Sequence record: LN881738.1
Length of the DNA stretch: 41,318 bases
Strand: one strand, 5' to 3'
DNA from: Clostridium phage slur17
A program made the position numbers and the translations under genes. Below are positions 879-41,318 of this stretch, in pieces (the first letter of the stretch is position 1; every line of letters starts with the position of its first letter). Below the pieces are notes generated by a model. That model made no database searches, was not told the DNA's origin, and saw nothing but the letters and a program-made list of their open reading frames with translations.

Positions 879-2975
879 TTAAGCATAAACATAGTATTGT
901 ACTGTAATAAATCCTTCTGAAAAAAAATTCATTCCGAGCCAGTAGCCTATTGTTTGGCTTCCTGACATTTCGTAAGACACACCTCGCACAGATGCAGAAA
1001 GTTCCAATTGTGGATTTGTATCACTTTTTTTTGCTGTCGCTGATGTGCTGAAATAACTTAAACAGCTACCATTTGTTGATGTAGACCTTATTGCACAAGT
1101 TGCTTTAAAATTTTTACCTGCAAATTTTTTTGGTAAGTCTATTATGATTTTTGAATCTTTATAATCAAAGTATGTGTATCCACTTTCTTGAAGATAATAT
1201 GACTCTGTTACATCTGAACCGGTGTAGAATTTTGTATATAGCCCCGAGTCGGTCATTTTTGTAAATCCCTTCCCGCTTATAAGTTTCAATCCTTCATCAT
1301 CAATAAGAACATAAGGACTTACACTATTAAAAGCAATTTTAAAAGTATTTGGGTTAAAATGAACATCTCCAAAACTATCAATTTCCATTGTTTTGACTCC
1401 ATTATCATTTACGACTACCATTTCTCTAGCATTTATATACATGCCTTTTAGCTGTCCAAACCAACCTCTATCTAGCTTCAACTCCCCAATTAATGCATCT
1501 GCTATTGCTCCTTTTTCTATCCACATAGTTCCATCGTCGATTTTTGTAGTCTGTGCTTCTACTTGATTAGAGAACTCTGTAACATTTCCATGCGAGTTTA
1601 CTGCTCTTACTCTGAAATACCAAGTTTGAAAAGGTTCAGCTTGATGAACGTAAGCACTTGCTTGCCCTACAAAAATTCGATTTGTAAAATTAATTGTATC
1701 TGGTACAAAGTCTTTAATTTGAGACGCATAAACTTCATATTTGTAATAAGACTTATTTGTAAATGTCCATGTTAGATTGATAAAAGCGAATAACCCCTCT
1801 GCTGTCAAAGCTGGTGTATTCGGTAAAGTGTCTGGAAACTCTGAATCATCTACTTTGACATTATCAATAGCTTTTTTTACTGTTTCTATTTTATTTTCTA
1901 TATTATTAAACTTGTTATTTAAAAAGTCTAAATGATTTATTAAATCGCCAACTTCAATACTATAGTATTTTCGATTTATTGGGCTATAGTCTGTTTTAAC
2001 TACTCTAGCAGTTGCGTTAATGTTTAAATTAAAATCTCGTATTATCACTTCATCACCTAGATTGACTGTTTCTAGCATTTTGTAATCTTTATAATTTATA
2101 GTTGTAGATAAATCTACGAAGTTGACTTTGTATAAAACTTTTGGTAAATCAACTTGATTGTATTTAAAATAGTCTTTGCATTTTTCTCTTAATTCTTCTT
2201 CAACACTGACCTCATCAGAACTAAAATCTATAGCAACAATCTTTTGGGTAGCATATTTATTCATATTAGGACTAACAATGTATTTTTCTGTCAATGTAAT
2301 CATTTCATCTTCGTAGACCGCATAAGGATATATTTTTGTTACAATATCTTGTGTATCATACTCCGCTTCAAGCCCTGTTATATTTTTTTTATATGCAAGT
2401 AGCACATTTTTACTCTCACCTCTTTGATAATTTAAGAAAACATTAAAATTATCAAAGAAAAGTTTCGCAGTTGGTTCAAATTTTTGAATTAGAGAATTTT
2501 CGCCCTCGCAGATTGCGCTGTAAGGGCTTTGCATTTCAATATTAATAGTATTCCTTGCCTTGATGTCTGAATGTCCTCTAAATCTGTTCTGTTCCTCACA
2601 AGCACGAAAGACTCTTTCTAAAGCTTCTTCGCAAGTAATATCGTTCAATTCCAAACTTTCTATGAAATTATTAAGCAAATCATACTTAATGTGTTGCGCT
2701 TTTACATTAATATACCCACCTAGATTTTTTGATATATAATAAATTCTAAAAAGCTGGTCTTTGTAGTCGGGCGAAGTATCAGCTTTAATTAATCTATCTA
2801 CTTTTATTTCTTTAAATAAAAAAGAGTCTTCGTAGATAGTAAATTCTAACTCGAAAACTCCGCTTTCTTCCTCTCTAACATGGTCATTTATTACATTCGT
2901 AAGAACACCTAAACCTAAATGCCTAAAATCTGTTTCTTTTTCTTCATATAAAACTAATTTTCCTTTTTGAATAAT
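879..2975 (-). CDS. Tail-associated lysin / prophage tail endopeptidase-type protein (Tal) with an FN3-like central domain
   Basis: The track ORF 879..2678 continues in frame for 99 more codons (IIQKGKLVLYEEKETDFRHLGLGVLTNVINDHVREEESGVFELEFTIYEDS...), which is a typical Tal N-terminus. Strong SD GGAGGGAGGG at 2980-2989. There is no ATG/GTG/TTG in that stretch, so the start is probably ATT at 2975 or 2972. Confidence 0.8.
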   Translation of the reverse strand: MIQKGKLVLYEEKETDFRHLGLGVLTNVINDHVREEESGVFELEFTIYEDSFLFKEIKVDRLIKADTSPDYKDQLFRIYYISKNLGGYINVKAQHIKYDLLNNFIESLELNDITCEEALERVFRACEEQNRFRGHSDIKARNTINIEMQSPYSAICEGENSLIQKFEPTAKLFFDNFNVFLNYQRGESKNVLLAYKKNITGLEAEYDTQDIVTKIYPYAVYEDEMITLTEKYIVSPNMNKYATQKIVAIDFSSDEVSVEEELREKCKDYFKYNQVDLPKVLYKVNFVDLSTTINYKDYKMLETVNLGDEVIIRDFNLNINATARVVKTDYSPINRKYYSIEVGDLINHLDFLNNKFNNIENKIETVKKAIDNVKVDDSEFPDTLPNTPALTAEGLFAFINLTWTFTNKSYYKYEVYASQIKDFVPDTINFTNRIFVGQASAYVHQAEPFQTWYFRVRAVNSHGNVTEFSNQVEAQTTKIDDGTMWIEKGAIADALIGELKLDRGWFGQLKGMYINAREMVVVNDNGVKTMEIDSFGDVHFNPNTFKIAFNSVSPYVLIDDEGLKLISGKGFTKMTDSGLYTKFYTGSDVTESYYLQESGYTYFDYKDSKIIIDLPKKFAGKNFKATCAIRSTSTNGSCLSYFSTSATAKKSDTNPQLELSASVRGVSYEMSGSQTIGYWLGMNFFSEGFITVQYYVYA

Positions 2976-15026: not shown

Positions 15027-15149
15027 AAAAACCTCCTGTTTTCATTTACAATTACGCTTTTTTACGTGGTAGCATCACATATTGTCTAACTTTTTACGTC
15101 GCTTAGTAGACATCTATATAAATGAATTAAGTATTTTAAGCATAAAAAT

Positions 15150-21498: not shown

Positions 21499-22107
21499 TC
21501 ACCCTATTAGGTCATTTAAAAACATGCTATATTCTTGATATTGTTCTTCATTAAGACCTAGATATACCTTAGTTTCTTCTATACTAGAATGTCCAAGCAT
21601 TTCCTTAACTCTTATAATATCAAATCCACTTTCTTCGTATATGGTGTAAGCGTATGTTTTACGCATGCTATGCGCTGTTATATGCTTAAGTCCAAAGTAT
21701 CTACCTGCTTCTTTCAGTATCACTGTTACTCTCTCAACGCCTATATGCGGAGTAACAGATTTTTGCCTGGATGGGAACATATATTCATAGTCCTTTTTAT
21801 CTCGTATGTAGCTTTTGAGTACTCTTTCTAAATTAGGAACTATTGGAGCTTTTCTAGGCTTTTTATTTTTCTTTCTTATGTTCTTAGTCTTTTCTTTTTT
21901 ACTCTCCATTATTAAGAAATAACCTTCGTCTATTGCATTTCTAACGTCCCTTACCTGTAGTTTAACTAAATCCCCTGCCCTGTAGCCCGTAGCCACCCCT
22001 AAGACAAATAAAACATAATTTCTAACACTCTTTTCTTTTAAGTATTCTTGTATATTTAAGACCATACGTTTGTCTTTGACTGGGTTAGCTGGTTTCTTAC
22101 TACCCAC
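21499..22107 (-). CDS. Small tyrosine recombinase (Xer-like, no arm-binding domain)
   Basis: HSMRKTYAYTIYEESGFDIIRVKEMLGHSSIEETKVYL carries the R..H..Y-type C-terminal catalytic pattern. Only 202 aa. Confidence 0.8.
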   Translation of the reverse strand: MGSKKPANPVKDKRMVLNIQEYLKEKSVRNYVLFVLGVATGYRAGDLVKLQVRDVRNAIDEGYFLIMESKKEKTKNIRKKNKKPRKAPIVPNLERVLKSYIRDKKDYEYMFPSRQKSVTPHIGVERVTVILKEAGRYFGLKHITAHSMRKTYAYTIYEESGFDIIRVKEMLGHSSIEETKVYLGLNEEQYQEYSMFLNDLIG

Positions 22108-31156: not shown

Positions 31157-31309
31157 ATGGATAATTTTTTACTTAATGTATTAGCTGGTGTTATAGCTAG
31201 TTTAATATTCTATATAATTAGCAAATTATTTAGACAAGTAAAAAACCACTCTGCGCAAAAGAGTGGTTGGGAATTTGATTTGAGAATCAAATTCAAAAAG
31301 TTTAAATAA
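31157..31309 (+). CDS. Type I toxin-like membrane peptide (50 aa)
   Basis: Below the track threshold. SD AAGGGAGGTG. Translation MDNFLLNVLAGVIASLIFYIISKLFRQVKNHSAQKSGWEFDLRIKFKKFK has a hydrophobic N-terminus and a Lys-rich tail. CCTCCC (31125-31130) can sequester the SD GGGAGG (31142-31147). Confidence 0.7.
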   Translation: MDNFLLNVLAGVIASLIFYIISKLFRQVKNHSAQKSGWEFDLRIKFKKFK

Positions 31310-31461: not shown

Positions 31462-31567
31462 AATTAAAAAACCACTCAAACGCCAATAAGAGTGGTTTAA
31501 GAAAATAAGTTATTTTTCAAAACATTGGAAATAGCTACTCTTGTGTAAAGTAAATCATTATTTCCTT
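31462..31567 (-). ncRNA. Second copy of the sRNA unit (same promoter and terminator architecture, no cognate toxin ORF seen)
   Basis: TTGTAT-19-TGaTATAAT (reverse complement of 31574-31604). Terminator aaaccactc/gagtggttt (31469-31498) plus a T-run. Confidence 0.45.
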
Positions 31568-31761
31568 GCTTTTATTATATCACATTTTTTAAAAAAAGAT
31601 ACAATTTTACATCATTTCTAATATACTAAAATCTTTACTTTTTACCAAAATTTGTTTAAAAAATAGGAGAAAACTATTGTTTTTGACGACCCGTCATGGT
31701 ATAATATATTTATAGAGAAGGAGGTGAGAAAGCAAAAAAATAAAAGAAAGGAGGAACGGGA

Positions 31762-31890
31762 ATGGGGAGATTAGAAAGAAGTAAAAAGAAAAGAGAAAAC
31801 AAATTTAACATAGTTAAAAAAGTTTTCTCCTTCATCCTATTATTACTTAACATAATCCTCGCAGTTCTAAGAATTTTGAAAGAACTGTAA
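31762..31890 (+). CDS. Small membrane peptide (42 aa)
   Basis: SD AAAGGAGG. Translation MGRLERSKKKRENKFNIVKKVFSFILLLLNIILAVLRILKEL. Upstream extended -10 TGgTATAAT at 31696-31704. An ~11-bp hairpin at 31898-31925 follows directly. Confidence 0.5.
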   Translation: MGRLERSKKKRENKFNIVKKVFSFILLLLNIILAVLRILKEL

Positions 31891-31964
31891 GGATAAGCCT
31901 AGAGGGAATAGCCCTTCTCTCTAGGTGACTTCTTTCTAATATTATAACACATTTCTAAAAAAAC

Positions 31965-32126
31965 ATGAGTGATAAATTTTATAAGATTTGCATTGTTTTA
32001 GTTTTGATAACTATAGTCTTAAATATAGTATCTATAGTATTAAACTCTAGTACAAGCAACATGCTCGGTTTAGTTTTTAGTGTTGTATTATTGCTTTTCT
32101 TTGTAATACAGCAAAAAAGGAGCTAA
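31965..32126 (+). CDS. Possible two-TM small protein (53 aa)
   Basis: MSDKFYKICIVLVLITIVLNIVSIVLNSSTSNMLGLVFSVVLLLFFVIQQKRS. There is no clear SD. It ends 3 nt before the AbrB-like gene. Confidence 0.35.
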   Translation: MSDKFYKICIVLVLITIVLNIVSIVLNSSTSNMLGLVFSVVLLLFFVIQQKRS

Positions 32127-32129
32127 TGA

Positions 32130-32312
32130 ATGGAAAAAGAAAAAAGAGATTTAAAGTTTAACTTTCACAAAGGTGGGAGTGGGTCGTTTACTCCTAGAAT
32201 GAGTGTTCCTAAAAAATGGGCTGATGAAATGGGCATAACAAGAGAAAACCCTAATGTTACGGCAACATTCGAGGGCGACAGGATAATAATTGAAAAGGCT
32301 AAGAATGAATGA
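32130..32312 (+). CDS. AbrB/MazE/SpoVT-type DNA-binding protein
   Basis: SFTPRMSVPKKWADEMGITRENPNVTATFEGDRIIIEK is a typical swapped-hairpin AbrB-like domain. Preceded by an AAGGAG SD. Confidence 0.75.
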   Translation: MEKEKRDLKFNFHKGGSGSFTPRMSVPKKWADEMGITRENPNVTATFEGDRIIIEKAKNE

Positions 32313-32322
32313 CTTTTTCTAT

Positions 32323-32360
32323 AAAAGAAGGTTGCTTTTTTTCTTAGCCTTCTTTTTTTT
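32323..32360 (+). terminator. Terminator after the AbrB-like gene
   Basis: agaagg (32326-32331) pairs with ccttct (32348-32353), followed by a T8 run. Confidence 0.5.
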
Positions 32361-32369
32361 AAATTTTAC

Positions 32370-32585
32370 TATAATATAAAAATATTACTGTAATATTATA
32401 AAAATATTATTTTAGTATTGTATATACAATATTTTAGTATTTTTAATATAATATATTGGTATTGTAAAAGCAATATGTAAATATTGTATTTATATTATTT
32501 GAATATTGTAATTAACAATATTAATATATTGTTGCAATATTATAAAAACAATACTACAATATTATTATAATATTATAAATATAAT
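32370..32585. repeat. Centromere-like cluster of ATATTG/CAATAT palindromes upstream of parA
   Basis: Examples: aatattacTgtaatatt, agtattgtataTacaatatt, aatattgtaattaacaatatt, atattgttgcaatat. Confidence 0.55.
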
Positions 32586-32600
32586 AATGAGGTGGAGAAA

Positions 32601-33410
32601 ATGGCTAATACAAAGCTACTTACGTACTTTAACATAAAAGGAGGTATCTATAAGACAACAACGTCTATAATGACAGCGTATGAACTTGCGAAAGATAAAG
32701 ATAAAAAAATACTCTTATGGGACTTAGATGTGCAAGCAAATCTAACACAATATGTTTATGAAATAAATCATAATGATAATACTACATTAGATATTTTAAA
32801 AGGGATTAGTGCTAATGATGCAATAGTCAAGTCACCTAATGAAAATTACATTAATGTAGACTTAATTCCTTCTGACATACAAATGGCTAGATTTGAACAA
32901 GAGCTATCACCTTTACCAGCCAGAGAAAAATTTTTAGCTCGCTGGTACATGCAAAACTTTAATACTTTGAGTGAGTATGATTATATTATCTGTGATTTAT
33001 CTCCACGCTACGATTTGACAGCTAAAAATGTGCTTTTCTTAGCAGATAGTATAATTATTCCAATTCAAGATAAAAACATTTCTTCTTTAAGAGGAGCAGA
33101 ATTATTTAAACAACTCTGGGATGTTGATAGAACCTATTTTGATAAGGAGGATAATATAAAAAGTACTATTTTAGTTGGATTTGAGAAGAAGAAAACTCAA
33201 ATTAGCGATACTTTCGATTCTTATCTGGAAGGGTTTAACGATATGAGAGATATTATGTTAGATACATACATTAGAAAAAATGAGTTTATAGAGAAGGCAC
33301 TATTAAAAAAACTATCTCTAACAGATTATACAAAAATAACTAAAGAGCATTTCAGCAGACAGGAATTTACTAATATGTTAGAAGAATTGAAAAGAAAAGG
33401 AGTGTTATAG
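32601..33410 (+). CDS. parA: ParA-family partition ATPase (deviant Walker A)
   Basis: KGGIYKTT Walker A, LLWDLDVQANLT, and the CDLSP motif. ATG at 32601 follows GAGGTGG. Confidence 0.85.
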   Translation: MANTKLLTYFNIKGGIYKTTTSIMTAYELAKDKDKKILLWDLDVQANLTQYVYEINHNDNTTLDILKGISANDAIVKSPNENYINVDLIPSDIQMARFEQELSPLPAREKFLARWYMQNFNTLSEYDYIICDLSPRYDLTAKNVLFLADSIIIPIQDKNISSLRGAELFKQLWDVDRTYFDKEDNIKSTILVGFEKKKTQISDTFDSYLEGFNDMRDIMLDTYIRKNEFIEKALLKKLSLTDYTKITKEHFSRQEFTNMLEELKRKGVL

Positions 33411-33743
33411 ATGCCAAGTTTCAACAGAGACCTTTTAGTTGATAAAGAAAAACCGATTTTGAAAAATGGAACAATCGTACAAAATGATTCTACAACTACA
33501 GACAATAAGACATTAAACATATATAATCTAGTTAATAAGAAAAGTAAAAAAGTGACTATGAGTGCAACGCTTGATGAGGAGCTTGTAAACAAATTAAAAT
33601 CTTTTTCTATTGATATGAACAGCGACGTTAGTAAATTATTAAGTGATATACTAACTCAAATTTTATCTGATGTCACTATAAAAGAAGAGAATTTAAATAT
33701 ATACAATGAGAGAAATAGAAGAAATAAGACTAAGAAAAAGTAA
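33411..33743 (+). CDS. Partition adaptor, probable ribbon-helix-helix centromere-binding protein (ParG/ParR-like role)
   Basis: TAGATG junction with parA. KKVTMSATLDEELVNKLKSFSIDMNSDVSKLLSDIL fits a beta-alpha-alpha RHH pattern. Confidence 0.6.
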   Translation: MPSFNRDLLVDKEKPILKNGTIVQNDSTTTDNKTLNIYNLVNKKSKKVTMSATLDEELVNKLKSFSIDMNSDVSKLLSDILTQILSDVTIKEENLNIYNERNRRNKTKKK

Positions 33744-33744
33744 A

Positions 33745-33860
33745 TAATATTATATTTATATTGTTTAGATATTACTTAAATATTGTATATATAATATTTA
33801 AGTAATATTTTAATATTATTATTACAATATATTAATATTGTTTAAATAATATGTTTTAAC
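33745..33860. repeat. Second centromere-like palindrome cluster downstream of the par genes
   Basis: 40-bp palindrome atattacttaaatattgtatatataatatttaagtaatat at about 33770-33809, plus acaatatattaatattgt. Confidence 0.5.
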
Positions 33861-33886
33861 TATAATCTAAAAAGGGGTTGGAAAAG

Positions 33887-34168
33887 ATGAACGTTTATCT
33901 GCAAATTGGAAAAGAGTTATCTGAAAAAATGACTAAATCGGAGTTGAATAAGTTTTCGCAAGAAGTAACGAATTATCTACGATTCGCTGGACATGATAAT
34001 GATATGAAAATTAAACTATTTCAAACAATTATAGAAGCAATTGCTAGAAAAAGAGTAACATTGCCAGCTGACAATGAATTTACACAAGGAATAATGTTAA
34101 GTAACGAATTAGAGATGACAACGAATGTAGGATTTATAATCGAAGGATTAAGTTATCATAATAACTAA
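33887..34168 (+). CDS. Hypothetical protein (93 aa)
   Basis: ATG at 33887 lies 9 nt after AAGGGG; the track TTG at 33878 is less likely. No motif recognised. Confidence 0.55.
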   Translation: MNVYLQIGKELSEKMTKSELNKFSQEVTNYLRFAGHDNDMKIKLFQTIIEAIARKRVTLPADNEFTQGIMLSNELEMTTNVGFIIEGLSYHNN

Positions 34169-34173
34169 ACATT

Positions 34174-34208
34174 AAAAAACAGTGTATTTATTGAATACAC
34201 TGTTTTTA
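34174..34208. terminator. Bidirectional terminator
   Basis: acagtgtatt (34179-34188) pairs with aatacactgt (34194-34203), flanked by A5 and T5. Confidence 0.6.
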
Positions 34209-34364
34209 TTTCCGCATAGTTAATCTAAAATTGGATATTATATTATTTCTATATAAATTAAATTGACATTTAAATCCCTCATAGTTAATCTTAAAATTCT
34301 TATTACAATATTATTTCTAAATAAATTAAAAAATATTTTAAATCCCTCGTAGTTAATCTTAAAA
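34203..34364 (-). CRISPR. CRISPR-like mini-array: three 28-29-nt repeats and two spacers (37 and 39 nt), with no cas genes in the window
   Basis: Repeats at 34336-34364, 34268-34296 and a degenerate one at 34203-34230. The minus-strand repeat TTTTAAGATTAACTATGAGGGATTTAAAT resembles clostridial type I-B repeats. The degenerate repeat lies at the terminator-proximal end. Confidence 0.5.
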
Positions 34365-34400
34365 GCGATACTATATACATTAATAATAATACTCTTCTAC

Positions 34401-34871
34401 TTAATTTTCAATTACATTTTGCAATTCTTGTTTACAACTTTCAATGCCTTTTTGTAATTCTTCTAAAAAAACTGATGTGCTATCGTCTATATTTCTTTCA
34501 GCAATTTCTTCGAAATTTTCTTTATTGAATTTTTTATAACTATCCCAATCCAAATTTTCCCACTCATTTTCACACCAATTTTCAAATTCTTCATAATCGT
34601 TTACGTAACAAATTTCTCCAAGCATATCGTTTAAATGAGTTGGCGCTTGATTTAATGTGAAAATATTAATTTCTTTGTCATCACCTAAAAGTTTAGCCCA
34701 AGTTTGAACTGCTATCGCTTCAACTTTTCCTTGTATATCGATATAAATTTTTATATTATTAGTCTCTTTGATTAAACAACTTTCTTTAAAAGCTTTTATA
34801 GCTTCTTCCTCTATTTTATCTATATTCATATCTATAACTCTTAAAAATCTTCTAGCTTTTTGTTTATTCAT
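34401..34871 (-). CDS. Hypothetical strongly acidic protein (156 aa)
   Basis: The C-terminal half is rich in D/E and W (YVNDYEEFENWCENEWENLDWDSYKKF). It is the last gene of a three-gene operon, immediately upstream of the CRISPR-like repeats. Confidence 0.6.
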   Translation of the reverse strand: MNKQKARRFLRVIDMNIDKIEEEAIKAFKESCLIKETNNIKIYIDIQGKVEAIAVQTWAKLLGDDKEINIFTLNQAPTHLNDMLGEICYVNDYEEFENWCENEWENLDWDSYKKFNKENFEEIAERNIDDSTSVFLEELQKGIESCKQELQNVIEN

Positions 34872-34890
34872 TTTTTATATCCTCCATTTT

Positions 34891-35397
34891 TTAGTTGTTT
34901 TTATACATAACAGTTCTTTCGCTCTTTTCAATTTCTGTAAGATACTCTAAAAATTCTTTAATTTCTTGTTTGTTTATGCCTGTAAATTCGTGTCTAATTT
35001 CGCATTTTTCAACGCGTGTAGAATATTTCTCTTCTAATTTATAAAATCCAGGTCTTACACTAGCTATAAGGTCACTTTCTACATTTTTGCTGCATAAGCT
35101 ATTTACATATATTAAAATGTTTTCTATATTTTCTATGTCTACTTTGTCGCCTTTTGAATAATAAAAATTAAATCTCAATCTTATTCCTATGCTACTGTTA
35201 ATTTCACCATGCCCCCACGTTTCAATGTTTAAACTTTTTCCAACTGTTTCTTTAACGATTCCCACGTGACTGTTTGCACAATCTTTAAGACTTATATCAA
35301 ATATATCATTGTTGATTTTATTAATCTCTTTTTCTATCATTTCAACATTCTCTTTATTAACTTTTAAATTTAATATTGTACTAAAATCTATATTCAT
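34891..35397 (-). CDS. Hypothetical protein (168 aa)
   Basis: Clean ORF and the middle gene of the operon. Confidence 0.6.
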   Translation of the reverse strand: MNIDFSTILNLKVNKENVEMIEKEINKINNDIFDISLKDCANSHVGIVKETVGKSLNIETWGHGEINSSIGIRLRFNFYYSKGDKVDIENIENILIYVNSLCSKNVESDLIASVRPGFYKLEEKYSTRVEKCEIRHEFTGINKQEIKEFLEYLTEIEKSERTVMYKNN

Positions 35398-35475
35398 ACT
35401 TCAATCCTCCATTTATTTTATATATTAAAATTATAGCATTCGACGGTGAACTATATTTGTACCAATCCAAAATTT

Positions 35476-36306
35476 TTAACACTCTACACCATCTCTAAAT
35501 ATTTGGTATGCAATTTCTATTTTTCTTTCAGCACTTTCTATTTTTCTATAGTTTTCAATCTGCTTCTTTTTAATGTCTGCAAATCCATTTTTATAAAATT
35601 GTGCATTTTTTTGTATTAATGTTTCTATTATGTATTTTTTAGCTTTCTCTATATATTCTGTGCTAGTAGCTTGTTTTACTGCGTCGTCAAATATTTCAAC
35701 TATTTCAAGTACATTTTCTTTTATTTCATTAGACCAATTATCATTAAAATTTATTTCTTTAGCTATTTTTTTAGCTTCTTCATAGCTTATACTACCTTCA
35801 ACTTTTCTAAGTTTATGAGACGCTTGAGTTTCTCCTTTTAAAAATTTTAAATTTCCAATTTCTTCTGTAAATTGAGACTCTCGAAAAATCTGGTTTATTT
35901 GAAACGCTTTTTGATTTAAAGAATTATATTTTAAAACATTTCTAAAATTATCTATAAAGAACTTAGCATCCTCTATGTTGCTTATTGCTTCTCTTATTCT
36001 TTCAAATTTTCTTTTACATCTTTCTGTCATTTCTTCTATACTCATATCTTTGATTTTGTAGTCTTCATTTTTTATTCTTTCTATTTTACTTTTTTCTAGT
36101 TCGTTAGTTAAATTTAAAATGTCTGTTCTTATATCATTAGCCCAAATAATTTGTTTTTCTGACCCTTTTAATTCTTTCATTTTTATATCCCCCTTTTTAT
36201 TTAAGAAGGATAAGCAAAGACTAAATTGTACTTTATAATCTACATCATTATATTTTTCTTTAATTTCTCTTGCTATTTTATGTGCTTCTTTAAATAAAGT
36301 TTTCAT
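35476..36306 (-). CDS. Hypothetical protein (276 aa)
   Basis: The first gene after the strong promoter. MKTLFKEAHKIAREIKEKYNDVDYKVQFSLCLSFL and GSEKQIIWANDIR look like conserved mobile-element motifs of unknown function. Confidence 0.6.
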   Translation of the reverse strand: MKTLFKEAHKIAREIKEKYNDVDYKVQFSLCLSFLNKKGDIKMKELKGSEKQIIWANDIRTDILNLTNELEKSKIERIKNEDYKIKDMSIEEMTERCKRKFERIREAISNIEDAKFFIDNFRNVLKYNSLNQKAFQINQIFRESQFTEEIGNLKFLKGETQASHKLRKVEGSISYEEAKKIAKEINFNDNWSNEIKENVLEIVEIFDDAVKQATSTEYIEKAKKYIIETLIQKNAQFYKNGFADIKKKQIENYRKIESAERKIEIAYQIFRDGVEC

Positions 36307-37901: not shown

Positions 37902-39752
37902 TTAAATTGCTTGATACATTGCGTAAGTAAAATAACCGTCTCCGCTTTGGTCATATCTAGCCCCGCCTAATGTTATAAACTTTTTGGTTTCATCTTTATA
38001 GCCATTTCCTCTGCCTGCTTCTATACTTGTATTGTAGCCATGATACACAATTCCATAATAACTATTACCTTTATATCCATAACAATAAGTTATGCCTACA
38101 TAAGTACTATTAATAGTTTGCGGTGGGTTATCATCAGCATCCGCAAAGCCTGTGATAGTTCTAAAATAAGCAGTACTTCCTTGTATTGTGTTCTGTATAT
38201 TATTTTTGTAAGTTTGTAAAGTTGAATTTTTGCTAATTAATATGCTTTTAGCTGTATTACTTTTAACCATTCTGTTAAGTGCAAGTCCTGTAAGTGTTAT
38301 TTTGGTCATAGCCGTTGAGCTATTTGCAATTATGCCCATTGCTGTTGTATTATTTACAAAAACACTTATAGACGTATCGTTATTTGCAACTGTCGACATA
38401 GCTTGTGCGTTATTTGCAATTATGCCCATTGCTGTTGTATTATTTGCAATAGTAACGTTATTTTCTGAAATAGTGAGCATAGCATTGAAAGCAGTAGAGT
38501 TATTTGCTATCTTAGTAAAAGCAGTAGTTTTATTTACTAAAATATTTATAGCTGTTGTACTTTTCATAAAAGCATTTAATGACACTGTTTTACTGAAAAT
38601 ACTTTCTATAATTCCCACTCGGTCACCAACTTTATTTACTATAATAGAATTATTTGCAAAAGTTGCCATTGCGATTGAACTTTCTAAAATTGCATCCGAA
38701 ATTTTTATTTTTTCCTCAATATCTCGTTGTGATATATTACGTGTGGTTTCCATACCATCATAATTTTTTACTGCATTTTTTAAAATCGGGAATATTTCTT
38801 CATTATAAGTTATTGCCATAATTTGACCTTTACCAGAAGCAATATTTGATTTTATTGTATTTATATAATTTAAAGAAGTTTGTAAATTATACTTCATTTC
38901 TAATAAATTAGGGATTATTTTTTCAACAGTAACATTATTAGTTAATATTTTATTTATGCTATTTTGGTTTTGCACTAATACTTTTGTAGCTTCTAAGTCA
39001 TTAAATATTTCCATTACGGAGTTTTCGTTACTTGAAATTTGTGTCATAGCTTCATCACTATTTATAATCGCATCCCTAATCACATTATTTTTTAAAATTG
39101 CTCTAATGACTGGTGACTCTGTTGTAACTCTTAAAATATATTGACCTAATAAATCCATAGCATTTGAACTTGCTACAACTGCGTCCATGCTTGATTTACA
39201 CATAGTTAAAGCTACTATTGCATTACTATTATTAAGTATTGCATTAGTAGCTTCCACATTTGCTAATATTTCTTCTATAGTTGTAAGATTTTCTAAATCA
39301 GTATTATCTAAGCTAAAAGTAGAATTAAACCATGCTCCTATAGTTGACTTTTCTTGTTCTCTTGTAACATATCTATCATACCCTGCTTTAAATTTTTCCT
39401 CTAATGAATTATAATGCTCTATAGTCATTTCTTTTACTACATTATCAGCATTTCCTAAGCTAAATATATCTGTTCTATAAAAGGCATTTAATTGTTCCCC
39501 TAGCTTAGTGCTTTTATTAAATAAATTATCAATATCAGTTTCTGAAAAAGCTGTGTAAACTGTTTCTCTTATTCCTCTATCAGAAAATAAATATAAACTA
39601 TTTAAATATAATTCTTCCCATATCCTAGCATTTCCAATAAACAGCACATAACTATCTAATCCATTTAGTTTTATGTCTTGCAAATAACTTAAAAAATTTA
39701 GTGGCTCGCCTTGCAAGTCACTATTCACTTTGTATGTCTCCGCCCAACTCAT
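37902..39752 (-). CDS. Tail fibre-associated / receptor-binding candidate (616 aa) with degenerate NxTA(M)..IAN repeats
   Basis: Start overlaps the fibre stop codon by 1 nt (39752). Repeats include TTAMGIIANNAQAMSTVANNDTSISVFVNNTTAMGIIANSSTAMTKI. A 33-bp DNA segment is duplicated at about 38326 and about 38415. Confidence 0.65.
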   Translation of the reverse strand: MSWAETYKVNSDLQGEPLNFLSYLQDIKLNGLDSYVLFIGNARIWEELYLNSLYLFSDRGIRETVYTAFSETDIDNLFNKSTKLGEQLNAFYRTDIFSLGNADNVVKEMTIEHYNSLEEKFKAGYDRYVTREQEKSTIGAWFNSTFSLDNTDLENLTTIEEILANVEATNAILNNSNAIVALTMCKSSMDAVVASSNAMDLLGQYILRVTTESPVIRAILKNNVIRDAIINSDEAMTQISSNENSVMEIFNDLEATKVLVQNQNSINKILTNNVTVEKIIPNLLEMKYNLQTSLNYINTIKSNIASGKGQIMAITYNEEIFPILKNAVKNYDGMETTRNISQRDIEEKIKISDAILESSIAMATFANNSIIVNKVGDRVGIIESIFSKTVSLNAFMKSTTAINILVNKTTAFTKIANNSTAFNAMLTISENNVTIANNTTAMGIIANNAQAMSTVANNDTSISVFVNNTTAMGIIANSSTAMTKITLTGLALNRMVKSNTAKSILISKNSTLQTYKNNIQNTIQGSTAYFRTITGFADADDNPPQTINSTYVGITYCYGYKGNSYYGIVYHGYNTSIEAGRGNGYKDETKKFITLGGARYDQSGDGYFTYAMYQAI

Positions 39753-41318
39753 TAACTCACCTCTTCTTTTATTTCTTCTATTTGATTACCTTTAAAAGTC
39801 GTTTTTACTTTACTTACTAATACATTATCTATATATTTTTCGTCTACTATAGTCCCATCTGCATTAAATTTAGTTATAGTTTTACTAACCGAGTCTAAAA
39901 TATCTGTTATAGAGCCGTCTGAATTAAAAGTCGTGCTTTTTTTAATGTAATCTAACTCTTTCGGTTTTTCTAATAACTCATTCCATGTAACTTTTCCTTT
40001 TGACGCTTTCCCCGTGTCTTCTCCATTTATAAACCAATTACCGTTTTCGCCGATTGCTGGAGTATAACCTTGTTCCCCTCTAAGCTCTGTATATATATAT
40101 TCCGTTTGTCCTTCTTCTCTAATACCTAGCTGACTTCCATTCCAATTAAATTCTAATTTATTTCCTGTCGCTCCTTTTAGATTTGTATAGCTATAGTCCT
40201 CTTGACCTTCTATTCTAACGCCTAGCTCCGTACCATCCCAACTAAATTCAATGCTATCGCCTTTTTGACCTTTCAAATCTGTATAAGTATAATTCTCCTG
40301 TCCTTCTATCCTTACACCTAGTCGTGTGCCATCCCATGCAAATTCGATATTGTCACCTTTGAGGTCTATATACTTATAATCTAATTCGTATTGTTGCCTA
40401 ACGCCTAACTGTGTGCCATCCCAATTAAATTCTAGGTTCTTGCCGTCCACGCCCGCTAGAGAACCTAAGTCTTCCCATTTAGTTTGATATATATAAATAT
40501 TTCTCCCTATAATCCAGCAATCTCCGATAGTAGGGTCTAATGGTAAGTTATCTATAGAATCTAATTTTCCTAAAATCCTCAAAGATGCCCCTCTAGCTGG
40601 TTTTTGGGTATCTATATTATTAATCCACCAGTTTCCATTTTCTCCTATTGTTGGAGTATAACCCTGCTCCCCTTTCAATTCTGTATAACTATAATTTTCT
40701 TGACCTTCTATCTTTATACCTAATCGTGTGCCATTCCAATTAAATTCAATACTATCACCTTTATCGCCTTTTTGACCTTTTAAATCTGTATAAGTATAAT
40801 TCTCCTGTCCTTCTATCCTTATACCTAGTCGCGTGCCATCCCAATTAAATTCTAAGCCATCTCCATTTTCACCCTTTATTTTTATGTCAGGAACTTTGAC
40901 CCAATTAGTGTTGTCCCAAACATATAAATCAATTTGGTTTTCTATTGTTGCGCTTTTTACAAAGTAAGCATCACTTAAAGTTGGATTGACTGGAAGTGCT
41001 GATATATTATCTAAACTTCCTTTTATTTCTATTCCTACCCCTTTTAACTCTTCTTTTGTGGGGATTGCATTAATAGCGTCTGTAACTTCTGTCTGCATAG
41101 TTTCTTTAGCTGTAGTTACTTCGCTAATCATAGTATTTTTAGCTGTTGTAACTTCCGCTTTAACTGTGTTAACTTCGTCTATTAATGTTGTTTTAGTAGT
41201 ATTAACATCACTAATCATGCTGTTTTTAGCGTCTGTAACTTCTGTAACTTTAGAGTCGAAAGTTTCTTTTATACTATTAAATTCTTCGACCCTTTTACCT
41301 TCTGCGATTTCTAATTCT
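39752..41318 (-). CDS. Tail fibre, 3' part (frame open to the right edge; the track start at 41218 is an internal Met)
   Basis: Upstream of the track Met the frame reads ELEIAEGKRVEEFNSIKETFDSKVTEVTDAKNS. About 7 modules of (L/I)EFNW(D/N)GTxLGxRxEGQxxYxYTxLKG, plus two GYTPxIGENGNW(W/F)IN motifs typical of Gram-positive phage fibres. Confidence 0.75.
   Translation of the reverse strand, partial: ELEIAEGKRVEEFNSIKETFDSKVTEVTDAKNSMISDVNTTKTTLIDEVNTVKAEVTTAKNTMISEVTTAKETMQTEVTDAINAIPTKEELKGVGIEIKGSLDNISALPVNPTLSDAYFVKSATIENQIDLYVWDNTNWVKVPDIKIKGENGDGLEFNWDGTRLGIRIEGQENYTYTDLKGQKGDKGDSIEFNWNGTRLGIKIEGQENYSYTELKGEQGYTPTIGENGNWWINNIDTQKPARGASLRILGKLDSIDNLPLDPTIGDCWIIGRNIYIYQTKWEDLGSLAGVDGKNLEFNWDGTQLGVRQQYELDYKYIDLKGDNIEFAWDGTRLGVRIEGQENYTYTDLKGQKGDSIEFSWDGTELGVRIEGQEDYSYTNLKGATGNKLEFNWNGSQLGIREEGQTEYIYTELRGEQGYTPAIGENGNWFINGEDTGKASKGKVTWNELLEKPKELDYIKKSTTFNSDGSITDILDSVSKTITKFNADGTIVDEKYIDNVLVSKVKTTFKGNQIEEIKEEVS
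41192..41290. repeat. 99-bp perfect direct repeat, copy 2 (partner at 29-127)
   Basis: Identical to 29-127. Exactly 28 nt separate each copy from its window edge. Confidence 0.9.

What the first reader, a model, noticed from the sequence alone, without database searches (positions are those of the whole stretch)
32340..33870. Partition cassette bracketed by two clusters of ATATTG/CAATAT palindromes: signature of a phage-plasmid lifestyle
A type Ib-like ParA with the KGGIYKTT Walker A motif is translationally juxtaposed to a 110-aa protein with a C-terminal RHH-like segment. Dense arrays of short palindromes built on AATATTGT/ACAATATT lie both upstream (32370-32585, at least six units) and downstream (33745-33860, including a 40-bp perfect palindrome).

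The element also carries a type I TA module and two small recombinases, and lacks a large integrase. Together these argue that the prophage is maintained as an episome, as reported for phiCD38-2-like C. difficile siphophages. Having two flanking centromere-like clusters rather than one is less usual.
Basis: partly seen in the sequence, partly recalled or inferred. Interest (0 to 1): 0.55.

Follow-up and report, generated by a model that had tools for sequence, protein, structure and literature searches.

The report
Phage-plasmid partition cassette with flanking centromeres
This is the plasmid-partition module of a Clostridioides difficile phage (phiCD38-2 family) already known to live as a plasmid; the ATPase and its adaptor class were already listed in the literature, and what appears undescribed is that the adaptor's probable binding sites form two 11-bp-phased repeat arrays, one on each side of the two genes.

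Summary
A 269-aa ParA (32601-33410) abuts a 110-aa gene (33411-33743). Two very AT-rich arrays flank the pair: 32370-32590 (about 20 registers) and 33744-33857 (about 10).

The arrays are AATATT(GT) units in both orientations with a strict 11-bp phase, far beyond shuffles and unique in the window. The "40-bp perfect palindrome" is 38/40.

Across 14 related cassettes, every one has a lineage-specific repeat or palindrome on both sides. A conserved promoter lies inside the upstream array.

This is a type Ib-like partition system with a split centromere. Precedents are pB171 par2 (parC1/parC2) and pCF10 prgP-prgO, the latter checked here.

- phiCD38-2 was shown to be an extrachromosomal plasmid.
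- Its "ParA-Ib; ParB-III", its two small recombinases and its type I TA are in the literature.
- Only the centromere architecture seems undescribed.

A conserved Tyr-for-Gly change in the ParA P-loop is unexplained. Interest is modest.

The parts
32370..32590 (.). Upstream centromere-like array (about 20 registers of 11 bp; AATATT(GT) core in both orientations), which also carries the par promoter
   Evidence: Tiling and autocorrelation; motif excess, phase statistics and uniqueness in the window; conserved in 6 other Clostridioides elements
32532..32560 (+). Predicted sigma-A-type par promoter inside the array: -35 TTGCAA (32532-32537), 17-nt spacer, -10 TACAAT (32555-32560). Both hexamers overlap CAATATT units.
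   Evidence: Consensus scan. The -35/-10 positions are kept in the 7-sequence alignment A5; -35 is TTGCAA in 5 of 7. Function is inferred.
32601..33410 (+). parA: 269-aa type Ib-like Walker ATPase; Walker A KGGIYKTT encoded at 32637-32660
   Evidence: Pfam AAA_31 4e-33. PDB sequence hits to PF-32, Soj, delta and P1 ParA, the last aligning only from its residue 113. dN/dS 0.10-0.15. The Tyr P-loop variant is clade-specific.
33411..33743 (+). Gene for the 110-aa centromere-binding adaptor (phiCD38-2 gp29 homolog). It has a conserved N-terminal MPxF(D/N)..LL..KEKP peptide, a disordered linker, an RHH domain at about residues 46-84 (nt 33546-33662), an extra helix at 92-108 and a basic tail.
33744..33857 (.). 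Downstream centromere-like array (about 10 registers of 11 bp, same motif)
   Evidence: Shares 29 10-mers with the upstream array, against 0-6 shared with downstream flanks of other lineages. It is kept in relatives whose downstream neighbour gene differs.
33769..33808 (.). Central dyad of the downstream array: two perfect 16-nt arms and an 8-nt spacer (38/40 self-complementary). It is the most conserved part of that array.
   Evidence: alignment A6
33887..34168 (+). 93-aa ORF (phiCD38-2 gp28 homolog) of unknown function, downstream of the second array and followed by a bidirectional terminator (34175-34207). It may be co-regulated but is not a conserved part of the cassette.
   Evidence: It has no family hit. 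It is absent from this position in L008, L020-L023 and in other genera.
31157..31309 (+). Type I toxin (50 aa) of an accessory post-segregational killing module. An antisense terminator-like hairpin lies at 31268-31244.
   Evidence: NCBIfam CD_typeI_toxin 94.3 bits, cutoff 60; terminator scan; noted for phiCD38-2 gp33 in PMC7699646
20465..21061 (-). 198-aa serine resolvase (candidate multimer-resolution enzyme)
   Evidence: Pfam Resolvase 1.7e-31 plus HTH
21499..22107 (-). 202-aa tyrosine recombinase with the catalytic domain only (Xer-like; annotated 'integrase' in phiCD38-2)
   Evidence: Pfam Phage_integrase 3.8e-21; PMC8026635 Table 1

Best explanation
This is a type Ib-like ParA/RHH-adaptor partition system that keeps the phiCD38-2-family prophage as a low-copy circular plasmid.

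Proposed mechanism, all inferred:
- Dimers of the 110-aa ribbon-helix-helix protein bind cooperatively to AATATT(GT) units. The units are spaced one helical turn apart (11 bp) in two arrays that flank the parA-adaptor operon.
- The two nucleoprotein complexes are the plasmid's centromeres.
- The adaptor's conserved N-terminal peptide contacts nucleoid-bound ParA-ATP and stimulates its ATPase. Plasmid copies then follow ParA gradients and are spaced apart before division.
- The par promoter lies inside the upstream array, so adaptor binding also autorepresses the operon.

Shown here: the genes and their family or fold, the repeats and their statistics, their conservation and lineage-specific co-variation with the adaptor, and the episomal state of the element. 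Inferred: DNA binding, ATPase stimulation, autoregulation and centromere activity of each array.
For: 1. ParA is a small Walker ATPase without the type Ia N-terminal domain.
3. The arrays are highly non-random and unique in the replicon.
4. In all 14 related cassettes examined, parA plus a small gene is flanked on both sides by a repeat or palindrome. This covers 9 plasmid or phage loci, 4 contigs and pCF10. The motif is lineage-specific: ATATTGT at 11 bp in Clostridioides, CCAATTGT at about 12 bp in Terrisporobacter, a roughly 30-bp palindrome in Paraclostridium, and AAATTATTTA in a P. bifermentans plasmid. For the Clostridioides and Terrisporobacter lineages, upstream-by-downstream 10-mer sharing is 15-36 for cognate pairs against 0-6 for non-cognate pairs; the other lineages separate less cleanly.
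5. The arrays stay with the cassette when the neighbouring genes change.
6. A -35/-10 pair inside the array is conserved, as expected for type Ib autoregulation (PMC3074162).
7. Both genes are under purifying selection.
8. The element is episomal (PMC6127314).
Against: No binding, stability or ATPase data exist for this system.

The ParA P-loop has Tyr where nearly all P-loop NTPases have Gly (KGGIYKT), so its nucleotide cycle may be atypical.

Motif and adaptor co-variation is not perfect. L020 uses AATAATGT although its beta-strand is identical to the window's.

In several lineages (Paraclostridium L003/L004, L007) the flanking elements are single palindromes followed by T-runs. These could equally be terminators.
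Confidence: 0.8

Rival explanations
1. The arrays are only transcriptional operators. The RHH protein represses the par promoter (upstream array) and a promoter for the 93-aa gene (downstream array). Centromere activity is absent or resides in just one array.
For: A promoter-like -35/-10 lies in each array (32532-32560 and 33766-33795). RHH proteins are classic repressors (PMC3074162). In pSM19035 one of several omega-binding sites is the main centromere (PMC5016525).
Against: In type Ib systems operator and centromere are the same DNA (PMC3074162, PMC5016525). The downstream array persists in relatives where the 93-aa gene is replaced by convergent, unrelated genes, so there is no promoter to regulate there. 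About 20 and about 10 units are far more than an operator needs.
Confidence: 0.12
2. The AT-rich phased repeats are replication-origin iterons or a DNA-unwinding element of the plasmid prophage, and the small protein is an initiator accessory factor.
For: Iteron arrays are AT-rich and helically phased. No canonical Rep gene is annotated near the cassette. In pCF10 the upstream repeats lie between prgP and the replication initiator gene.
Against: The same array-gene-gene-array unit occurs in replicons with unrelated backbones, and the motif tracks the small protein rather than the backbone. These include 21-kb Terrisporobacter plasmids with a CHC2 primase-type gene, 55-146-kb Paraclostridium plasmids, and siphophages. 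The partner is a ParA, not a Rep, and the small protein has a partition-adaptor architecture.
Confidence: 0.05
3. The repeats are chance low-complexity sequence, or intrinsically curved AT-rich intergenic DNA with no specific protein partner.
For: The arrays are 87-93% A+T in a 31% G+C replicon. AT-rich intergenic DNA often shows roughly 10-11-bp phasing.
Against: Motif counts and phase exceed all 2000 dinucleotide shuffles. The two arrays are the top 25 of 4120 windows. The periodic element is a specific hexamer, not an A-tract. The motif is conserved where spacers drift and differs between lineages while staying identical on the two sides.
Confidence: 0.03

Closest known systems
Type Ib partition systems with RHH adaptors (TP228 ParF/ParG-parH, pSM19035 delta/omega-parS, pCXC100 ParA/ParB-parS)
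   Same: Small Walker ParA without an N-terminal HTH. A small adaptor is encoded immediately downstream, with a flexible N-terminal tail and a dimeric RHH DNA-binding domain. The centromere is made of short direct and inverted repeats that overlap the promoter (PMC3074162, PMC5016525).
pB171 par2 (type Ib ParA/ParB with parC1 upstream and parC2 downstream)
   Same: Two centromere-like repeat clusters bracket the parA-parB operon. The construct order parC1-parA-parB-parC2 is given in PMC4270457. From my own recollection of Ebersbach & Gerdes 2001 and Ringgaard et al. 2007, the clusters hold 17 and 18 short repeats bound by ParB.
   Different: The host is a Gram-negative bacterium and, as I recall, the repeats are 6 bp. 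Protein homology could not be tested because pB171 is not in the collections.
Enterococcal pheromone-plasmid partition cassettes: pCF10 PrgP/PrgO (= pAD1 RepB/RepC)
   Same: This is the best-scoring NCBIfam model for this ParA (PrgP, E 1.6e-15). The adaptor is small, with a similar ...E-E-x-N-I-Y-N-R-R... C-terminal tail. In pCF10 I found the same (A/G)AATATAT unit both upstream of prgP and downstream of prgO, with the 8-mer AAATATAT present 8 and 3 times. The host is a Firmicute.
   Different: Scores are far below the equivalog cutoffs: PrgP 57 bits against 400. PrgO gives no hit for the window protein and 15 bits against 100 for a Paraclostridium ortholog. hhalign of the adaptor family against PrgO gives a probability of only 4.5%. 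ParA is 24% identical to PrgP over 172 residues. pCF10 is a conjugative plasmid, not a phage.
Phage-plasmid partition modules (P1 ParAB-parS, N15 SopAB, C. botulinum c-st TubZR, Bacillus IEBH/B83 ParM + RHH)
   Same: A temperate phage is maintained as a plasmid by an NTPase, an adaptor and a centromere. It is backed up by recombinases and an addiction module (PMC8026635).
   Different: P1 and N15 use type Ia ParA with HTH ParB. c-st uses a tubulin-like system. IEBH and B83 use actin-like ParM. This element uses a type Ib Walker ATPase with an RHH adaptor.

Membership tests
Type Ib ParA partition system | Walker-type ParA that lacks the N-terminal HTH domain of type Ia | tested here: met
   The protein is 269 aa and its Walker A starts at residue 13. 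Pfam AAA_31 covers residues 5-178. P1 ParA (398 aa) aligns only from its residue 113.
Type Ib ParA partition system | Deviant Walker A with signature lysine (KGGxxK[ST]) | tested here: met
   The motif is KGGIYKTT, and K13, G14, G15, K18 and T19 are invariant in alignment A3. One caveat applies: Tyr17 replaces the usual Gly in the Clostridioides/Paraclostridium subclade.
Type Ib ParA partition system | [quoted passage not shown] | tested here: met
Type Ib ParA partition system | Centromere of direct and inverted repeats upstream of the operon, overlapping the promoter | tested here: met
   About 20 phased units lie at 32370-32590. A conserved -35/-10 pair sits inside the array.
Type Ib ParA partition system | The adaptor binds the repeats, represses the operon and stimulates the ParA ATPase, and the cassette stabilises a plasmid | not testable with these tools
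   This needs EMSA or footprinting, reporter fusions, ATPase assays and stability assays.
PrgP/PrgO (pCF10) - RepB/RepC (pAD1) partition family | ParA reaches the NCBIfam PrgP equivalog cutoff | tested here: not met
   57.2 bits against a cutoff of 400
PrgP/PrgO (pCF10) - RepB/RepC (pAD1) partition family | Adaptor homologous to PrgO | tested here: not met
   The window protein has no PrgO hit. Paraclostridium orthologs score 15 bits against a cutoff of 100. hhalign probability is 4.5%.
PrgP/PrgO (pCF10) - RepB/RepC (pAD1) partition family | The same short repeat on both sides of the two-gene cassette | tested here: met
   Seen in pCF10 and in the window
Type Ia ParABS (P1, F) | Large ParA with an N-terminal HTH domain, and an HTH/ParB-CTPase-type adaptor | tested here: not met
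   ParA has no N-terminal extension. The adaptor has no ParB-type Pfam hit and has an RHH fold.
Phage-plasmid (temperate phage maintained as a plasmid) | Complete phage gene set together with plasmid maintenance genes on one replicon | tested here: met
   The region is 98.5-100% identical to phages phiCD38-2, phiCD111, phiCD146 and CDSH1, and to circular C. difficile plasmid records. Annotation shows capsid, tail, lysis and CI repressor genes alongside parA.
Phage-plasmid (temperate phage maintained as a plasmid) | Extrachromosomal in lysogens, with no chromosomal att junctions | tested here: met
   The window ends are contiguous in circular records. Of 1488 collection blocks carrying the exact adaptor, 752 have a longest contig of 20-50 kb, 2 of 50-200 kb, and none above 200 kb. 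The experimental demonstration for phiCD38-2 is cited in PMC6127314. This particular isolate was not tested.

The most novel reading that the evidence does not exclude
The most novel reading not excluded is that this clade's defining features, two centromere arrays bracketing the operon and a ParA whose P-loop glycine is replaced by tyrosine, reflect a mechanistically distinct segrosome. For example, adaptor filaments on the two arrays could pair to loop out and silence the par operon, working with an ATPase that has an altered, perhaps slow or adaptor-gated, nucleotide cycle. On this reading it would not be a routine type Ib system.
Probability: 0.1. Interest if true: 0.5.

Novelty: new member of a known kind. 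Interest (0 to 1): 0.27.

Why it matters
phiCD38-2-like phage-plasmids are common in epidemic C. difficile lineages, and the phiCD38-2 prophage raises toxin production in ribotype 027 lysogens (PMC3714127, PMC6127314, PMC6807378).

Knowing the exact cis-acting centromere and the adaptor gene gives practical handles:
- curing these prophages by incompatibility
- building stable low-copy C. difficile vectors
- recognising related partition cassettes that current annotation labels 'hypothetical protein'

Conceptually it adds little. The lifestyle, the ParA, the adaptor class, the recombinases and the TA module are already published, and flanking centromeres have precedents.

Tried and rejected
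1. Direct family and PDB sequence searches with the 110-aa protein alone gave nothing significant. Orthologs and profiles were needed.

2. The first AF2 run used only Clostridioides sequences and was poor: pLDDT 62 with one long helix. I discarded it in favour of the 24-sequence run.

3. Homology of the adaptor to PrgO looked plausible from the shared ...NIYN.R... tail. hhalign gave only 4.5% probability, so I do not claim it.

4. The pB171 record was not in the collections, and the original phiCD38-2 paper (PMC3133130) is not held. Details of those rest on secondary sources and memory.

5. The inverted similarity of the two arrays (83 nt at 77%) might suggest terminal inverted repeats of a mobile cassette. 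Two arrays built from the same near-palindromic 11-bp unit will align at 60-80% in either orientation (direct families score 61-75%). I do not treat this as evidence of transposition.

6. Rfam found nothing in or near the cassette, so I did not pursue an RNA explanation for the arrays.

7. The simple terminator scan did not flag the hairpin upstream of the array at about 32325-32355, probably because of its large loop. I read it as a probable terminator from the sequence only.
Full report
**Identity of the window**

Region 31500-35500 is 100% identical to Clostridium phage CDSH1 (KU057941) and to a circular C. difficile plasmid record (NZ_CP021446). It is 99.9% identical to NZ_CP037803 (41,319 bp; the window is 41,318 bp). 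It is 98.5-98.9% identical to phages phiCD38-2, phiCD111 and phiCD146.

A junction made from the last 400 and first 400 bases of the window maps across position 400 in those circular records. It falls inside a repeat-rich tail-fibre gene. The window is therefore a complete circular replicon opened at an arbitrary point, with no host flanks.

The phiCD38-2 annotation shows a full siphophage gene set, a CI repressor, a 'putative para' (gp30) and, directly after it, a 'hypothetical protein' (gp29).

**The observation**

The ORFs are as described.
- ParA most likely starts at the ATG at 32601, behind the RBS GAGGTGGAG, and ends at 33410.
- The 110-aa ORF begins at 33411, the base after the parA stop codon.
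- ParA hits Pfam AAA_31 (4e-33) and has KGGIYKTT at residues 13-20.
- The two flanks are 87-93% A+T.

Tiling them in 11-mers puts an rrTATT or AATAyy core in the same register almost throughout: about 20 registers at 32370-32590 and about 10 at 33744-33857.

The statistics against dinucleotide-preserving shuffles are clear.
- AATATT occurs 10 and 6 times, against 1.9 and 1.1 expected.
- ATATTG/CAATAT occurs 9 and 4 times, against 1.0 and 0.4 expected.
- The 11-nt phase concentration was never reached in 2000 shuffles.
- Self-match peaks at lags 11, 22 and 33 (z up to 6.6).
- Among 4120 sliding 120-nt windows, the 25 highest values for 11-nt periodic excess all lie in these two arrays, about 8 SD above the mean.

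The '40-bp perfect palindrome' is 38/40: two perfect 16-nt arms around GTATATAT.

- The type I toxin is above its NCBIfam cutoff.
- One recombinase is a 198-aa serine resolvase and the other a 202-aa tyrosine recombinase with only the catalytic domain.
- There is no full-length integrase among the 27 ORFs of at least 150 aa.

**What the 110-aa protein is**

Alone it matches no Pfam, NCBIfam or PDB sequence. Its close homologs are confined to Clostridioides: 18 clusters among 5.8 billion sequences. An exhaustive profile search found only 11 representatives among 1.84 billion.

tblastn with ParA found graded relatives on plasmids of Paraclostridium (64-66%), Sarcina (42%), Terrisporobacter (about 39%) and other C. 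difficile plasmids (37-40%). In every one, parA is followed directly by a gene of 102-134 aa.

These small proteins align end to end and share one architecture:
- an N-terminal MPxF(D/N)..LL peptide
- a variable linker
- an I-Y-D-L-V motif and a lysine-rich stretch
- a strand-helix-helix segment
- a further helix ending in ..Y-N-x-R/K, then a basic tail

Four lines of evidence point to a ribbon-helix-helix fold.
1. The Sarcina member scores 29.0 bits on Pfam RHH_1 (cutoff 20.5), exactly over the segment aligned to window residues 47-83.
2. The family profile's four best PDB hits are all RHH proteins: SvtR, a CopG-family protein, ORF56 and E73 (E 0.003-0.4).
3. AF2 with a shallow alignment failed. 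With 24 sequences it gives pLDDT 85-90 for residues 50-100, with an extended segment at 46-55, helix 56-68, a turn, helix 73-84 and helix 92-108.

Each line is modest for a 45-residue domain, but they agree. Both genes are under purifying selection: dN/dS is 0.10-0.15 for ParA and 0.11-0.27 for the adaptor.

**Are the arrays the adaptor's sites?**

This cannot be shown without experiments, but the comparative pattern is what a cognate centromere predicts.

In six further Clostridioides elements the adaptor is 66-92% identical and the recognition strand KKVTMSATLD is invariant. Both flanks again carry ATATTG-type units with 11-nt periodicity. This holds although the spacer sequence has drifted. 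It also holds although the downstream neighbour changes from the 93-aa gene to unrelated genes, some of them convergent.

Other lineages have other motifs, and each has its own motif on both sides:
- Terrisporobacter: CCAATTGT/ACAATTGG at about 12 bp
- P. sordellii and P. bifermentans: a roughly 30-bp palindrome, AACTATAAAATAACT|TAGTTATTTTATAGTT
- a 35-kb P. bifermentans plasmid: AAATTATTTA at 11 bp
- another C. difficile plasmid: GATTAATA-type units

A matrix of 10-mers shared between each upstream and each downstream flank gives these values. All flanks are AT-rich, so non-cognate pairs act as composition controls.

| Comparison | Shared 10-mers |
|---|---|
| Within the Clostridioides group | 18-36 |
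| Terrisporobacter, cognate | 15 |
| The L009/L010 group | 10-12 |
| Most non-cognate pairs | 0-6 |

The other lineages separate less cleanly. For rows L003-L005 and L007, some non-cognate values (up to 12) equal or exceed the cognate ones.

The most promoter-proximal part of the upstream array contains a -35 TTGCAA / 17 nt / -10 TACAAT pair. Both hexamers overlap CAATATT units, and the pair is conserved across the seven Clostridioides loci. The most conserved part of the downstream array is its central dyad.

**Mechanism (inferred)**

RHH dimers insert a two-stranded sheet into the major groove, and adjacent dimers bind tandem sub-sites cooperatively (PMC3074162). A near-palindromic AATATT core repeated every helical turn would place successive dimers on one face of the DNA.

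The resulting complexes on the two arrays would act as centromeres. The conserved N-terminal peptide on a disordered tether (pLDDT below 50 for residues 16-35) would engage ParA, as the tails of ParG and omega do (PMC3074162, PMC5016525). Occupancy of the promoter-containing array would autorepress the operon.

The resolvase and the Xer-like recombinase would resolve multimers. The type I TA would kill segregants (PMC7699646).

**Comparison with known systems**

All sequence-testable defining features of type Ib systems are met; see the membership table.

The second, downstream array departs from the textbook layout but has precedents. pB171 par2 is ordered parC1-parA-parB-parC2 (PMC4270457). 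In pCF10 I found the same (A/G)AATATAT unit upstream of prgP and downstream of prgO.

PrgP is the best NCBIfam model for this ParA, but at 57 bits against a cutoff of 400. Homology of the adaptor to PrgO is not demonstrable. The cassette therefore works like these systems but is not a member of that equivalog family.

**Novelty**

The following is already published.
- phiCD38-2 was the first C. difficile prophage shown to be an extrachromosomal plasmid (PMC6127314).
- Its parA and the neighbouring type I TA were discussed as maintenance functions acquired with a 1.9-kb pCD630-like segment (PMC7699646).
- PMC8026635 Table 1 lists 'ParA-Ib-type ATPase; ParB-III', a Xer-like tyrosine recombinase and a small serine recombinase.

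In the searchable library, only one paper combined phiCD38-2 with centromere or ParB terms, and it does not describe the arrays. GenBank and RefSeq records call the adaptor 'hypothetical protein'.

The undescribed parts are:
- the location, unit, 11-bp phasing and double-flank layout of the centromere
- its conservation across a small Peptostreptococcaceae/Clostridia clade
- the odd ParA P-loop

**Episomal state**

The exact 110-aa protein occurs in 1488 blocks of the assembly collection. The longest contig carrying it is 20-50 kb in 752 blocks, 50-200 kb in 2, and never above 200 kb. It is also found on 27 circular PLSDB plasmid records. I found no sign of chromosomal integration. The two longer contigs were not inspected.

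**Verdict**

This is a correct and well-observed finding whose interpretation is already established for this phage family. The added value is a precise, testable map of the centromere and adaptor, and one unexplained P-loop substitution.

Noticed in passing
window 32649-32651 (ParA residue 17): The ParA P-loop reads KGGIYKTT. Tyr replaces the glycine that precedes the catalytic lysine in almost all Walker A motifs. The Tyr is conserved in all Clostridioides and Paraclostridium members (65-100% identity), while the 37-43% relatives have the canonical KGG(I/V)GKTT. The gene is under purifying selection (dN/dS 0.10-0.15).
   Followed up: partly
L020:451-690 and 1846-1960 (Clostridioides sp. ZZV14-5902 contig): In this relative the repeat core is AATAATGT/ACATTATT instead of AATATTGT, a one-base change carried through most units of both arrays. 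The adaptor's predicted recognition strand is identical to the window's. This suggests concerted evolution of the units, or specificity determinants outside the strand.
   Followed up: no
window 15053-15112 (- strand): Rfam GP20-b RNA motif (55 bits, gathering score 36.2) in the phage structural region. It was the only Rfam hit in the window.
   Followed up: no
window 41318/1 junction; ORFs 39752-41218 (-) and 879-2678 (-): The window is opened inside a tail-fibre gene that contains near-identical internal repeats. Related records differ in repeat number there (542 query bases map to 637 record bases). This probably explains why the assembly broke at that point.
   Followed up: partly
window 32130-32312 (+): A 60-aa ORF just upstream of the array has weak AbrB/MazE/SpoVT-type hits (Pfam MazE_antitoxin E 0.006). 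It is annotated AbrB-family or PemI in some plasmid records. No toxin partner is evident next to it. A probable terminator hairpin (about 32325-32355) separates it from the array.
   Followed up: no
window 31762-31890 (+) and 31965-32126 (+): Two further small hydrophobic ORFs (42 and 53 aa, annotated 'putative membrane protein' in phiCD38-2) lie between the type I toxin and the par cassette. They could be additional small toxins or superinfection-exclusion peptides.
   Followed up: no
loci L002-L010, L020-L023: The unit of array, parA, adaptor gene and array sits next to unrelated neighbours in siphophages, 21-kb Terrisporobacter plasmids and 55-146-kb Paraclostridium plasmids. It therefore behaves as a portable module, in line with the published idea that phiCD38-2 acquired it from a plasmid.
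   Followed up: partly
collection look-up for window 33411-33743: Two of 1488 blocks carry the exact adaptor on contigs of 50-200 kb, longer than the roughly 41-kb element. They could be concatemers, co-integrates or rare integrations.
   Followed up: no
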